NCBI RefSeq assembly: GCF_003334765.1
Contig: NZ_QOWT01000075.1
Strand: one strand, 5' to 3'
DNA: 1,983 nucleotides
DNA from: Escherichia coli
GTDB lineage: Bacteria; Pseudomonadota; Gammaproteobacteria; Enterobacterales; Enterobacteriaceae
Shown: piece by piece, positions 1-1,983 of the stretch
How the letters are laid out: each line of letters starts with the position of its first letter
How positions within the stretch are numbered: position 1 is the first letter of the stretch
The notes under the pieces: model-generated
Database searches by the model: none
Seen by the model: only the letters and a program-made list of their open reading frames with translations
Told to the model about the DNA's origin: nothing
Made by a program: the position numbers and the translations under genes

Positions 1-225
1 GCTCTGTATCACTGTATTGTCTTCCGGCAACTGATGAGGGCTGGCAGAAGTCGCCGGTGTTTCGGTAGCGTCACGTTCATTCACCACGCGGAGTGAATAA
101 CCGTTTTCAGCGACTTTGTTAATCAGTTCAGCGAGCTCAATACCATCGACGTCAACGACAATGCGCCCCATGTTCAGCGCCTGCGCATTAATGCTGTCGG
201 CTTCCAGCGTCAGGGCCAGTTTCAT
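1..225 (-). CDS. yeeW: YeeW-like protein, 5' portion only (75 codons; continues beyond window start)
   Basis: Manual minus-strand translation from ATG at 225..223 gives MKLALTLEADSINAQALNMGRIVVDVDGIELAELINKVAENGYSLRVVNERDATETPATSASPHQLPEDNTVIQS with no stop up to position 1. N-terminus matches my recollection of E. coli YeeW. The ATG overlaps the toxin stop as ATGA (222..225). Possible SD GGGGG about 9 nt upstream. Not in the ORF track, presumably because it is truncated by the window edge. Confidence 0.7.
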   Translation of the reverse strand, partial: MKLALTLEADSINAQALNMGRIVVDVDGIELAELINKVAENGYSLRVVNERDATETPATSASPHQLPEDNTVIQS

Positions 226-599
226 TGTTTCGCCCCCGGATGTTTACCCAGGGTAATGTTATTTACCGTTCTGTAGTTGTCGCGTGTCATCAGGCCGGTT
301 GCCCGGCGTGCCCGGAGAATATCAATGCTGTTGATTAACTGCGACGGGGCTCCTGCGCTGAATCCCGGCTGGTCGGTACGTACCAGCGCGTATTTTTCAA
401 CGAGAAAGTTCACCGCGTCACACAGTGAAATCCCTGCCTCAATATGCTGCTCAATCACACGTTCATCAGCGAACGGTGTGTCATTCAGCGTGAGGCCATA
501 GTGCTGGTCCAGCAGTCGGGTGAGCAGTGTCTGCCAGATGGTGATGGGAGACGGGCAGCCCGATGCCTCCCGTACGTGAGTGTCGGGTAATGTATTCAT
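222..599 (-). CDS. cbtA: Type IV toxin, CbtA/YeeV/YkfI/YpjF family (inhibitor of FtsZ and MreB polymerisation)
   Basis: ORF-track protein from the internal Met: MNTLPDTHVREASGCPSPITIWQTLLTRLLDQHYGLTLNDTPFADERVIEQHIEAGISLCDAVNFLVEKYALVRTDQPGFSAGAPSQLINSIDILRARRATGLMTRDNYRTVNNITLGKHPGAKQ (125 aa), close to recalled E. coli CbtA/YkfI over most of its length. Start chosen at ATG 599..597, which sits after the antitoxin stop with a weak SD (AGAGAA); the track's 160-aa version begins at a GTG at 704 inside the antitoxin gene. Stop TGA at 222..224. Confidence 0.88.
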   Translation of the reverse strand: MNTLPDTHVREASGCPSPITIWQTLLTRLLDQHYGLTLNDTPFADERVIEQHIEAGISLCDAVNFLVEKYALVRTDQPGFSAGAPSQLINSIDILRARRATGLMTRDNYRTVNNITLGKHPGAKQ

Positions 600-645
600 C
601 TTAAGTTCTCTGTAACAGGTGGTTATAAAGGGGAGATATCCGGTG

Positions 646-1023
646 TTATACGGTGGTTGCGGGCGCTGCCGGTGTCGGATAAACAGCCAGATAAACGTAA
701 CCACAGGAGCCGAGGGTGTCGGCTTCGCAGGTCAGCCCTTTCGCATACAGTGTCACGGTATGCTGATGGCGGGGATTCAGTTCACCACTGGTGAGCATGA
801 GCTCCAGTTGTTTCATCAGCAGCGGAAAGGCCTGGTCCAGGTGGTATGCATCTGCATCGCTGAACCGGCCTCTGATACCGGCGCGGTCGGCAAGGTAATG
901 CAACCGGTTACCCTTCTGCACCAGACGTGCCCCGAAACAGGGCGTCACGGTGCAGGGCAGTCCCCACCAGAGGCGGTCGTGATTGTCGTCGGGAGGCGTT
1001 GTCCCGGGGAGTGTGTCTGACAC
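646..1023 (-). CDS. cbeA: Type IV antitoxin, CbeA/YeeU/YfjZ/YafW family
   Basis: 125-aa translation MSDTLPGTTPPDDNHDRLWWGLPCTVTPCFGARLVQKGNRLHYLADRAGIRGRFSDADAYHLDQAFPLLMKQLELMLTSGELNPRHQHTVTLYAKGLTCEADTLGSCGYVYLAVYPTPAAPATTV matches recalled YeeU/CbeA closely. Start codon is GTG (plus 1021..1023 is cac), preceded by GAGGA at 1031..1035. Stop TAA at 646..648. Lies directly upstream of the toxin, as expected for this pair. Confidence 0.88.
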   Translation of the reverse strand: MSDTLPGTTPPDDNHDRLWWGLPCTVTPCFGARLVQKGNRLHYLADRAGIRGRFSDADAYHLDQAFPLLMKQLELMLTSGELNPRHQHTVTLYAKGLTCEADTLGSCGYVYLAVYPTPAAPATTV

Positions 1024-1102: not shown

Positions 1103-1324
1103 TCAGTTCAGGGTGACGCTCATCAGCCGGACATACGGACCAAAACTGTCCTTACGGCGTTCTGCAAACACAGCCAGTACACCGGGAATATCCTGCACTT
1201 CACGGCCGGTATATGTATCCGTGCTACCGTGCCAGCGGTATTTACCGGTACAGAACGGAAAAAGACGGGATGCAGGATGCTGACGGTGAATACGCATGGC
1301 TTCACCACGGGTGATGATTTTCAT
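1103..1324 (-). CDS. yeeT: DUF987-family small protein (YeeT/YpjJ/YkfH-like), function unknown
   Basis: 73-aa translation MKIITRGEAMRIHRQHPASRLFPFCTGKYRWHGSTDTYTGREVQDIPGVLAVFAERRKDSFGPYVRLMSVTLN matches recalled E. coli YeeT. ATG at 1324..1322 with a canonical AGGAGG SD at 1334..1339 (9-nt spacer). Stop TGA at 1103..1105. Conserved position between the RadC-like gene and the antitoxin. Confidence 0.85.
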   Translation of the reverse strand: MKIITRGEAMRIHRQHPASRLFPFCTGKYRWHGSTDTYTGREVQDIPGVLAVFAERRKDSFGPYVRLMSVTLN

Positions 1325-1410: not shown

Positions 1411-1887
1411 TTAAAGCAGACCGTGTTCCGCAAAGGAGAAAACCTGGCTGCCACCGACTATCAGATGGTCCGGTACCCGGATATCAACCAGGGCCAGTGC
1501 CTGTACCAGACGCTCAGTGATAAGGCGGTCTGCCTTGCTGGGGGGGACTTCACCGGACGGGTGATTGTGCGCCAGCACCACGGCAGCGGCATTGTGGTAC
1601 AGGGCGCGTTTAATCACTTCCCGGGGATGGACTTCCGTACGGTTGATGGTGCCGGTGAAGAGGGTTTCACCGGCAATCAGCTGATTCTGGTTGTTCAGAT
1701 ACAGCACCCGGAACTCTTCACGCTCCAGTCCCGCCATGTTCAGAATCAGCCATTCCCGTGCCGCATGCGTGGAGGTGAAGGCCACGCCGGGTTCATGAAG
1801 ATGGCGGTCCAGGGTTTTCAGGGCCCGCTGAATGAGGCTGCGCTCGCCGGGTGTCATCTCTCCGGGCAGAAAGGAAAGTTGTTGCAT
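1411..1887 (-). CDS. yeeS: RadC-like JAB/JAMM-domain protein (YeeS/YfjY/YkfG family; historically mislabelled DNA repair protein RadC)
   Basis: Translation MQQLSFLPGEMTPGERSLIQRALKTLDRHLHEPGVAFTSTHAAREWLILNMAGLEREEFRVLYLNNQNQLIAGETLFTGTINRTEVHPREVIKRALYHNAAAVVLAHNHPSGEVPPSKADRLITERLVQALALVDIRVPDHLIVGGSQVFSFAEHGLL (158 aa) contains the JAMM signature H-x-H-x7-S-x2-D (HNHPSGEVPPSKAD, encoded at 1528..1569). Start set at ATG 1887..1885, which has GGAGAG 9 nt upstream; the track's longer ORF starts at ATG 1902..1900, which has no SD and abuts the upstream stop. Stop TAA at 1411..1413. Confidence 0.88.
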   Translation of the reverse strand: MQQLSFLPGEMTPGERSLIQRALKTLDRHLHEPGVAFTSTHAAREWLILNMAGLEREEFRVLYLNNQNQLIAGETLFTGTINRTEVHPREVIKRALYHNAAAVVLAHNHPSGEVPPSKADRLITERLVQALALVDIRVPDHLIVGGSQVFSFAEHGLL

Positions 1888-1894
1888 TGTGCTT

Positions 1895-1900
1895 CTCTCC
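1895..1900 (-). promoter_or_regulatory. Shine-Dalgarno GGAGAG for the RadC-like gene, lying within the first-ATG codons
   Basis: Minus strand reads TGA ATG GAG AGA AGC ACA ATG; GGAGAG sits 9 nt upstream of the ATG at 1887. Confidence 0.55.
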
Positions 1901-1902
1901 AT

Positions 1903-1983
1903 TCAATCGATGATGCGCATAATGGCGCTGCATTCCGGATGCTGCAGGGCGTAATCCCGCAGCCGGTAATAATGGACCGTCAT
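1903..1983 (-). CDS. 3' end of upstream gene (26 codons plus stop); possibly a KlcA/ArdB-family antirestriction protein (YfjX/YafX-like) by synteny
   Basis: Minus-strand frame reads ...MTVHYYRLRDYALQHPECSAIMRIID then TGA at 1905..1903, with no internal stop back to the window edge. In CP4-57 and CP4-6 type cassettes the gene immediately upstream of the RadC-like gene is an antirestriction protein, but in CP4-44 it is yeeR, so the product is uncertain. Confidence is for a real coding 3' end, not for the product. Confidence 0.5.
   Translation of the reverse strand: MTVHYYRLRDYALQHPECSAIMRIID

What the first reader, a model, noticed from the sequence alone, without database searches (positions are those of the whole stretch)
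220..227. ATGA stop/start overlap couples toxin and YeeW translation
The toxin TGA (222..224) overlaps the YeeW ATG (223..225) by one codon-shifted base pair, the classic arrangement for translational coupling. This implies YeeW output is tied to toxin translation and hints that YeeW acts with the TA pair.
Basis: seen in the sequence. Interest (0 to 1): 0.3.

Follow-up and report, generated by a model that had tools for sequence, protein, structure and literature searches.

The report
Toxin stop overlaps yeeW start (ATGA)
The last bases of a CbtA-type toxin gene and the first bases of the next gene (yeeW) share the four letters ATGA; this common bacterial arrangement is strictly conserved here and probably ties YeeW production to toxin production, though in this strain yeeW is an unusual shortened, fused version.

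Summary
**Observation:** confirmed, on the minus strand. The toxin's TGA (224..222) and the yeeW ATG (225..223) form ATGA.

**Identity:** the window is 100% identical to an E. coli 55989/042/O104:H4 island: antirestriction–radC–DUF987–cbeA–cbtA-family toxin–yeeW.

**Conservation:** in 38 of 38 loci (34 distinct junction sequences, 19 genera) with a downstream DUF5983_N gene, its start overlaps the toxin TGA by 4 nt (ATGA; GTGA once; TTGA in two loci). Meanwhile:
- the toxin tail has 28 variants
- toxin length is 124–129 aa
- antitoxin–toxin spacing is 44–89 nt

A Shine-Dalgarno-like G-run sits 3–9 nt upstream in 82% of junctions, against 8% of background positions. No conserved RNA structure was found.

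**Mechanism:** coupling by termination-reinitiation is the likeliest reading. Four of five tested E. coli ATGA pairs are coupled. It is untested here.

**Pseudogene question:** here yeeW has only the N domain. PGAP calls it a pseudogene. However, the frame runs 140 codons in frame into DUF957, past the window. This fusion allele occurs in 19% of complete E. coli genomes. It is under purifying selection (dN/dS 0.38 and 0.20).

**Function:** unknown. YeeW is not required for related TA pairs.

**Verdict:** an ordinary mechanism in a conserved, unstudied instance.

The parts
222..225 (-). ATGA: yeeW start codon ATG (225..223) overlapping the toxin stop codon TGA (224..222)
   Evidence: Direct reading. 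Same boundaries in PGAP annotation of the identical 55989 sequence. TGA and the +4 A are invariant in 34 unique junctions.
233..237 (-). Shine-Dalgarno-like GGGGG inside the toxin's last codons, 7 nt before the yeeW ATG (GGAGG in most other alleles)
   Evidence: Best anti-SD duplex -8.6 kcal/mol; about 3% of positions in the locus reach -8 or better. Across 34 junctions, 82% have <= -6 kcal/mol against 8% of background positions, Mann-Whitney p ~ 1e-19.
222..599 (-). CbtA-family toxin gene (125 codons plus stop)
   Evidence: ORF. PGAP 'TA system toxin CbtA family protein' WP_001094429.1. 85% identical to K-12 CbtA.
1..225 (-). First 75 codons of the 140-codon yeeW-type frame (DUF5983_N + linker + DUF957); it runs off the window's low end
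   Evidence: Translation has no stop in the window. In the full locus the ORF is L001 9759..10181, 140 aa.
55..216 (-). DUF5983_N domain (residues 4-57)
   Evidence: Pfam PF25638 E=1.2e-27. dN/dS 0.38 among 7 alleles.
1..54 (-). Linker (residues 58-75, ATSASPHQLPEDNTVIQS) joining the N domain in frame to DUF957, which starts just beyond window position 1
   Evidence: It shows no clear similarity to the long form at this position. K-12, L005 and L090 carry a nonsense codon here ('...PHQLL*').
646..1023 (-). cbeA/yeeU antitoxin gene; 46 nt gap to the toxin gene, not overlapping
   Evidence: Antitoxin-toxin spacing is 44-89 nt across loci.
1103..1324 (-). DUF987 (yeeT) gene
1411..1887 (-). radC/yeeS (JAB domain) gene
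1903..1983 (-). 3' end of the antirestriction gene

Best explanation
The four bases ATGA (window 225..222, minus strand) are the junction of two co-transcribed genes of a CP4-44-like island: a CbtA-family type IV toxin and yeeW (DUF5983 family). A ribosome finishing the toxin stops on UGA with the yeeW AUG one base upstream. A G-rich Shine-Dalgarno-like run lies 7 nt before that AUG, inside the toxin's last codons. The most likely mechanism is termination-reinitiation: the terminating ribosome, or its 30S subunit, is held by the SD-like run and restarts on the overlapping AUG, so YeeW is made largely in proportion to toxin translation. Shown here: the overlap; its invariance across genera while everything around it varies; the conserved SD-like element; the absence of a conserved masking RNA structure; and purifying selection on the yeeW frame. 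Inferred: co-transcription, the coupling itself, and any physical or functional partnership of YeeW with the toxin. In this strain the product is a 140-aa natural fusion of the YeeW N domain with DUF957, not the canonical 162-aa DUF5983. Its biochemical role is unknown.
For: - Overlap read directly and annotated identically in 55989 and K-12.
- 38/38 loci (34 unique junction sequences, 19 genera) with an intact DUF5983_N gene have the -4 overlap: ATGA in 31 of the 34 unique junctions, GTGA in 1 and TTGA in 1 (two loci).
- In the same loci there are 28 different toxin C-terminal tails, toxin length is 124-129 aa, antitoxin-toxin spacing is 44-89 nt, and DUF5983-DUF957 spacing is 11-37 nt in varying frames.
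- K-12-type alleles changed the junction (…AAATGATGA…) yet recreated an ATGA.
- SD-like element: -8.6 kcal/mol here, the second strongest start signal in the operon, and enriched across loci.
- No sigma70-like promoter on the gene strand anywhere in the window.
- N-domain-seeded search of plasmids also finds the toxin overlapping or adjacent in nearly all of the 30 records listed, out of 34 with a match.
- yeeW N domain dN/dS is 0.38, and residues 2-18 are conserved, so the overlapping ATG is the real start.
- Literature: -4 ATGA is the commonest configuration in E. coli; 4/5 tested pairs were coupled; short overlaps are enriched among subunits of heteromeric complexes (PMC6728339, PMC10666635).
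Against: - No expression data for this pair; no paper found addresses yeeW translation.
- The strong SD would allow de novo initiation independent of the toxin. One of five tested E. coli ATGA pairs (bioBF) was uncoupled and one (menDH) only about 60% coupled (PMC6728339).
- No conserved RNA structure sequesters the start (RNAalifold 0 pairs; single-sequence z = -0.74), so nothing enforces dependence on upstream translation.
- Invariance is partly over-determined: the ATG is held by yeeW, and the +4 A by YeeW residue 2 (Lys in 30 of 34 junctions).
- yeeW decays repeatedly (K-12 nonsense allele; L029, L031, L035, L039, L041, L065), so it is dispensable in many hosts.
Confidence: 0.65

Rival explanations
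1. Independent initiation: yeeW is translated mainly by ribosomes recruited de novo by its own Shine-Dalgarno-like element. The 4-nt overlap is a compact, frozen gene arrangement with no regulatory consequence, so YeeW output follows mRNA level, not toxin translation.
For: Strong SD-like run at optimal spacing (-8.6 kcal/mol), conserved across loci. No conserved structure hides the start. bioBF is a published uncoupled ATGA pair (PMC6728339). The toxin's own start has the weakest SD in the operon (-2.9), so few ribosomes may reach the junction.
Against: The junction geometry is invariant in 38/38 loci although the toxin tail varies in sequence and length, and in-frame indels always restore termination exactly on the start. 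Most tested E. coli ATGA pairs are coupled, and SD motifs also assist reinitiation (PMC6728339). Even ~20 nt of spacing abolishes coupling (PMC10666635), which fits selection for zero spacing here.
Confidence: 0.25
2. Relic: in this strain yeeW is a dead, C-terminally truncated pseudogene as PGAP annotates it. The ATGA is a leftover, and only the separately annotated DUF957 gene (GTG start) is functional.
For: PGAP note 'incomplete; missing C-terminus'. The DUF5983_C domain is absent. Nonsense alleles of the same short form exist (K-12, L005, L090). Retention of the open frame alone is not statistically significant (P 0.19-0.63 per pair). The AF2 model of the fusion is poor (pLDDT 47).
Against: There is no stop or frameshift: one 140-codon frame. 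dN/dS is 0.38 for the N domain and 0.20 for the DUF957 part, against 0.18 for the toxin. The fusion junction is in 1036 of 5426 complete genomes at 91-100% identity. The 140/137-aa product is called as one protein in many clusters, for example P0019 with 518 members. PGAP's GTG start for DUF957 has no SD (-2.1 kcal/mol).
Confidence: 0.08
3. Chance: the ATG is not a real start, and the ATGA is a coincidence at the end of the toxin gene.
For: ATGA occurs 13 times on this strand of the window.
Against: The ORF from this ATG matches Pfam DUF5983_N from residue 4. No other start codon lies upstream in frame. The junction is conserved in 19 genera.
Confidence: 0.01

Closest known systems
E. coli gene pairs with a 4-nt ATGA overlap coupled by termination-reinitiation (hyfHI, astDB, ydbH/ynbE, menDH; Huber et al. 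2019, PMC6728339; 2023, PMC10666635)
   Same: Co-directional genes, stop and start sharing ATGA, and an SD motif inside the 3' end of the upstream gene.
   Different: Coupling has not been measured for cbtA-yeeW. The upstream gene is a toxin, and the downstream product has no known function or known complex with it.
E. coli K-12 cbtA-yeeW (CP4-44; b2005/b2006)
   Same: Orthologous locus with the same annotated 4-nt overlap; toxin 85% identical.
   Different: K-12's junction sequence differs (AAATGATGA, toxin one codon shorter). K-12 yeeW is a 64-aa remnant of the short form, with a nonsense codon in the linker and a deletion in the DUF957 part. The window's allele keeps the 140-codon frame.
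Canonical DUF5983 (162-164 aa, N + C domains) followed by a separate DUF957 gene (e.g. L008, E. coli 503829; most other genera)
   Same: Same position after the toxin, same ATGA overlap, same N domain.
   Different: The window's allele lacks the C domain (PF19419) and joins the N domain directly, in frame, to DUF957 through a linker with no clear similarity to the long form.
Type II TA operons in which antitoxin and toxin genes overlap or abut for coupled translation, and tripartite TA systems with a third protein (own knowledge; not tested here)
   Same: A short overlap links expression of two proteins of a TA locus, and a third conserved gene is present.
   Different: Here the antitoxin-toxin pair is NOT overlapping (44-89 nt). 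The overlap links the toxin to the gene after it. No evidence exists that YeeW binds or modulates the toxin or antitoxin.

Membership tests
Translationally coupled -4 overlapping gene pair (termination-reinitiation) | Two co-directional genes whose stop and start codons overlap as ATGA/GTGA | tested here: met
   conserved in 38/38 loci.
Translationally coupled -4 overlapping gene pair (termination-reinitiation) | Both genes on one transcript (no promoter or terminator between them) | tested here: inconclusive
   The overlap leaves no intergenic space, and there is no sigma70-like promoter on the gene strand in the window. Two weak terminator-like hairpins on the gene strand lie inside coding sequence and are about what chance gives. 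No transcript data.
Translationally coupled -4 overlapping gene pair (termination-reinitiation) | Translation of the downstream gene depends on translation of the upstream gene reaching the overlap | not testable with these tools
   Needs reporter fusions or ribosome profiling. The prior from the literature is 4 of 5 E. coli pairs coupled (PMC6728339).
DUF5983 / YeeW family | DUF5983_N domain (PF25638) | tested here: met
   Residues 4-57, E=1.2e-27.
DUF5983 / YeeW family | DUF5983_C domain (PF19419) | tested here: not met
   No hit. Alignment with the intact form shows the C domain is absent.
DUF5983 / YeeW family | Encoded immediately downstream of a CbtA-family toxin | tested here: met
   also PMC10790755 and bioRxiv 10.64898/2026.06.09.728211.
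CbtA/CbeA type IV toxin-antitoxin module | CbtA-family toxin preceded by a CbeA/YeeU-family antitoxin gene | tested here: met
   PGAP names; toxin 85% identical to K-12 CbtA. NCBIfam gave no hit, so family assignment rests on annotation and homology.
CbtA/CbeA type IV toxin-antitoxin module | Toxicity neutralised by the antitoxin | not testable with these tools
   Shown for the K-12 homologues (PMC5371832, PMC5624674), not for this allele.
Pseudogene | Internal stop or frameshift | tested here: not met
   Single open 140-codon frame.
Pseudogene | Truncation relative to the family | tested here: met
   C domain missing.
Pseudogene | Relaxed selection (dN/dS near 1) | tested here: not met
   0.38 (N domain) and 0.20 (DUF957 part) against 0.18 for the toxin; the linker at 0.41 has too few sites.
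Tripartite TA system (third component modulating toxin or antitoxin) | Third protein binds or regulates the toxin or antitoxin | not testable with these tools
   Only conserved linkage is available. The K-12 paralogues without yeeW are functional TA pairs (PMC5371832).

The most novel reading that the evidence does not exclude
YeeW (here hard-wired to DUF957 as one polypeptide) is a so far ignored third component of the longer CbtA-type type IV TA modules. It would be made in fixed proportion to the toxin through the ATGA junction, and would bind or control the toxin. This would fill a gap: CbeA acts on the toxin's targets, neither CbtA nor CbeA autoregulates the operon, and the activation route is unknown (PMC5371832). 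The natural N-domain-DUF957 fusion would then be a Rosetta-stone sign that DUF5983 and DUF957 work together.
Probability: 0.2. Interest if true: 0.55.

Novelty: new member of a known kind. Interest (0 to 1): 0.3.

Why it matters
The mechanism, a 4-nt stop/start overlap, is textbook and the commonest arrangement of co-directional genes in E. coli, so the junction itself is not surprising.

What is useful is that it singles out a conserved, unstudied gene. In these operons the antitoxin and toxin genes are never overlapping, whereas the toxin and yeeW always are. K-12, where CbtA/CbeA was characterised, carries only a truncated yeeW, which may be why it has been ignored.

If YeeW is coupled to and acts with the toxin, it offers a testable lead on how type IV CbtA toxins are controlled.

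There is also a practical annotation point. In about a fifth of complete E. coli genomes the 140-codon N-domain-DUF957 frame is split into a 'pseudogene' plus a GTG-started small gene, although it behaves like one coding frame.

Tried and rejected
- **NCBIfam, PADLOC and PHROGs** gave nothing informative for YeeW, DUF957 or the toxin.
- **Rfam:** no RNA family in the window.
- **Conserved RNA structure masking the start:** none (RNAalifold 0 pairs on 32 sequences; single-sequence fold z = -0.74). The 'unmasking' version of coupling is therefore rejected.
- **AlphaFold2 of the 140-aa fusion:** mean pLDDT 47, unusable, so no fold search was run on it.
- **PDB sequence-profile search:** nothing below E = 0.1.
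- **First search for related loci attempt** failed because the 17-sequence alignment was too divergent. It was redone with 6 sequences.
- **Contaminated N-domain HMM:** two or three unrelated small ORFs (L051, L052, L057) were picked up by a loose regular expression and got into the HMM. Their 'hits' are self-matches and were discarded. The tblastn results independently support the remaining set.
- **Programmed frameshift joining DUF5983 to DUF957** (bioRxiv 10.64898/2026.06.09.728211) is not supported as a general feature. The DUF957 frame is +2 in 13 loci and +1 in 7, and is open for only 3-17 codons upstream in most genera.
- **Literature searches for yeeW function or expression** found nothing relevant.

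Full report
**1. What is in the window**

- The 1983-bp window is 100% identical to a chromosomal island in E. coli 55989, 042 and O104:H4. Related DNA is found in 4942 of 5426 complete E. coli genomes.
- All genes lie on the minus strand: the 3' end of an antirestriction gene (1983..1903), radC/yeeS (1887..1411), DUF987/yeeT (1324..1103), the antitoxin cbeA/yeeU (1023..646), a CbtA-family toxin (599..222), and the start of a DUF5983/yeeW gene (225..1).
- This is the CP4-44-type module known from K-12.

**2. The observation**

- On the minus strand positions 227..220 read CAATGAAA.
- The toxin frame ends …AAA CAA TGA (224..222). The next frame starts ATG AAA CTG… (225..223).
- The two codons share two bases within a 4-nt ATGA, the standard -4 overlap.
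- PGAP gives the same boundaries in 55989 (toxin 9385..9762, DUF5983 from 9759 in L001) and in K-12.

**3. Is it more than chance?**

I collected 80 loci encoding CbtA relatives (55-92% identical) from one genome per species, plus E. coli loci at graded identity. I located each toxin stop and the next ORF.

- All 38 loci with an intact DUF5983_N gene have the start overlapping the toxin TGA by 4 nt. These give 34 distinct junction sequences from 19 named Enterobacterales genera.
- The overlap is ATGA in 31 unique junctions, GTGA in Trabulsiella L012, and TTGA in Erwinia/Winslowiella L020/L027.
- The TGA and the following A are invariant.
- Around them, 28 different toxin C-terminal tails occur and toxin length ranges from 124 to 129 aa.
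- K-12-type alleles rewrote the junction (…AAATGATGA…) yet again have an ATGA.
- As controls in the same loci, antitoxin-toxin spacing takes 12 values between 44 and 89 nt, and DUF5983-DUF957 spacing is 11-37 nt in varying frames.
- Decayed yeeW copies (L031, L041, L065) still carry the ATGA.
- Seeding instead with the YeeW N domain in the plasmid collection again finds the toxin annotated under or beside the match in nearly all of the 30 records listed, out of 34 with a match.

Caveat: part of this invariance is over-determined. The ATG is held by yeeW, and the +4 A by its second residue (Lys in 30 of 34 junctions).

**4. Signals for translation**

- A G-rich Shine-Dalgarno-like run (GGGGG here at 237..233; GGAGG in most alleles) lies 7 nt before the ATG.
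- Its predicted duplex with the 16S tail is -8.6 kcal/mol, the second strongest start signal in the operon. The toxin's own start has the weakest (-2.9).
- Across the 34 junctions, 82% reach -6 kcal/mol or better, against 8% of positions inside the toxin genes (p ~ 1e-19).
- No conserved RNA structure covers the junction.
- No Rfam family matches, and no promoter-like site lies on the gene strand.

**5. Mechanism**

- Published work shows that -4 ATGA is the commonest configuration of co-directional E. coli gene pairs.
- Four of five tested pairs are coupled by termination-reinitiation: three strictly, menDH about 60%, bioBF not at all.
- SD motifs contribute variably, and even ~20 nt of spacing abolishes coupling.
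- Such overlaps are enriched among subunits of heteromeric complexes (PMC6728339, PMC10666635).

By analogy, the best explanation is that ribosomes terminating on the toxin UGA reinitiate on the yeeW AUG with help from the SD-like run. This is inferred, not shown. The same SD could support independent initiation, which is the main rival.

**6. What yeeW is here**

- The frame from the ATGA matches Pfam DUF5983_N (residues 4-57, E=1.2e-27) and nothing else.
- The usual gene is 162-164 aa with N and C domains, followed after a short gap by a separate DUF957 gene (L008 and most genera).
- In this locus the C domain is missing, and PGAP labels the gene 'incomplete; missing C-terminus'.
- The frame has no stop. 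After an 18-aa linker with no clear similarity to the long form, it continues in frame through DUF957, giving a 140-codon ORF (L001 9759..10181). Only the first 75 codons are in the window.

Evidence that this is a live allele, not a relic:
- The fusion junction is present in 1036 of 5426 complete genomes at 91-100% identity; the long form is in 3754.
- Seven of ten alleles read keep all 140 codons. Three (K-12, L005, L090) share a nonsense codon in the linker.
- dN/dS is 0.38 for the N domain and 0.20 for the DUF957 part, against 0.18 for the toxin.
- Other gene callers predict the 140/137-aa protein in many clusters.
- The GTG that PGAP uses for DUF957 has no SD.

Weaknesses:
- Retention of the open frame alone is not significant.
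- The linker has too few sites to judge selection.
- Whether one polypeptide is made is untested.

K-12 yeeW (64 aa) is a nonsense-truncated remnant of this short form.

**7. Does YeeW act with the TA pair?**

- Linkage is strict one way: DUF5983_N always follows a CbtA toxin (PMC10790755; bioRxiv 10.64898/2026.06.09.728211).
- It is not strict the other way. Other CbtA subfamilies lack it (L018/L023/L042 go straight to DUF4942), and K-12 YkfI and YpjF have none.
- All three K-12 systems behave as TA pairs. They do not autoregulate, and their activation is unknown (PMC5371832).
- YeeW is therefore an accessory of the 124-129-aa toxin subfamily.
- Its fold gives no clue. The fusion model is poor. 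The long form's C domain is confident but has no significant structural neighbour.

**8. Verdict**

- The mechanism proposed is ordinary and plausible but unmeasured.
- The yeeW in this window is an atypical, probably functional fusion allele that the annotation calls a pseudogene.
- This is a new, conserved instance of a known kind of gene junction, with modest interest as a lead to an unstudied partner of a well-known toxin.

Noticed in passing
window 1..225 (-), continuing to L001 9984..10181: The yeeW frame is a natural in-frame fusion of DUF5983_N with DUF957 (140 aa). PGAP splits it into a 'pseudogene' and a GTG-started DUF957 gene that has no Shine-Dalgarno signal. The fusion junction is in 1036 of 5426 complete E. 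coli genomes.
   Followed up: yes
L002 7941..8135 (K-12 yeeW): K-12 yeeW (64 aa) is a remnant of the short fusion form: a GAA->TAA nonsense codon in the linker ('…PHQLL*') plus a deletion inside the DUF957 part. L005 and L090 share the same nonsense codon.
   Followed up: yes
L008-L061, region between DUF5983 and DUF957: A preprint proposes a programmed frameshift joining DUF5983 to the downstream domain. Across genera the DUF957 frame is +2 (13 loci) or +1 (7 loci) relative to DUF5983, and usually open only 3-17 codons upstream, so a conserved frameshift is unlikely. Long fused predictions (P0047, P0062) look like locus-specific frameshift or deletion products.
   Followed up: partly
window 600..645 (-) and L001 9339..9384: The antitoxin and toxin genes are not overlapping (46 nt here; 44-89 nt across loci), and the toxin start has the weakest SD of the operon (-2.9 kcal/mol). 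The toxin-yeeW pair is the only overlapping junction in the operon.
   Followed up: partly
L044, L045, L047-L050, L055, L060 (Kosakonia, Enterobacter, Phytobacter, Trabulsiella, Citrobacter): A toxin subgroup ends GGAGGGAAATAATGACG: a -1 (TAATG) overlap with a short ORF starting 'MTLALIVDDD…'. This resembles a decayed YeeW N-terminus. L048 has lost the ATG.
   Followed up: no
[not shown]
   Followed up: partly
protein hits: Proteins that NCBI names DUF957 carry no current Pfam domain. Their position matches the AntiFam entry ANF00264 discussed in bioRxiv 10.64898/2026.06.09.728211. dN/dS of 0.20 for this part argues it is real coding sequence; the identity with ANF00264 is my inference.
   Followed up: partly
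window 1887..1905 (-): An ATG at 1902..1900 directly abuts the antirestriction gene's stop (1905..1903) and opens the radC frame 5 codons upstream of the PGAP start (1887). The true radC start is uncertain.
   Followed up: no
L009, L011, L040, L069: Contigs labelled Collinsella, Lachnospiraceae, Chryseobacterium and Clostridiales carry Enterobacterales-type CbtA islands. This is probably contamination or binning errors in those assemblies.
   Followed up: no
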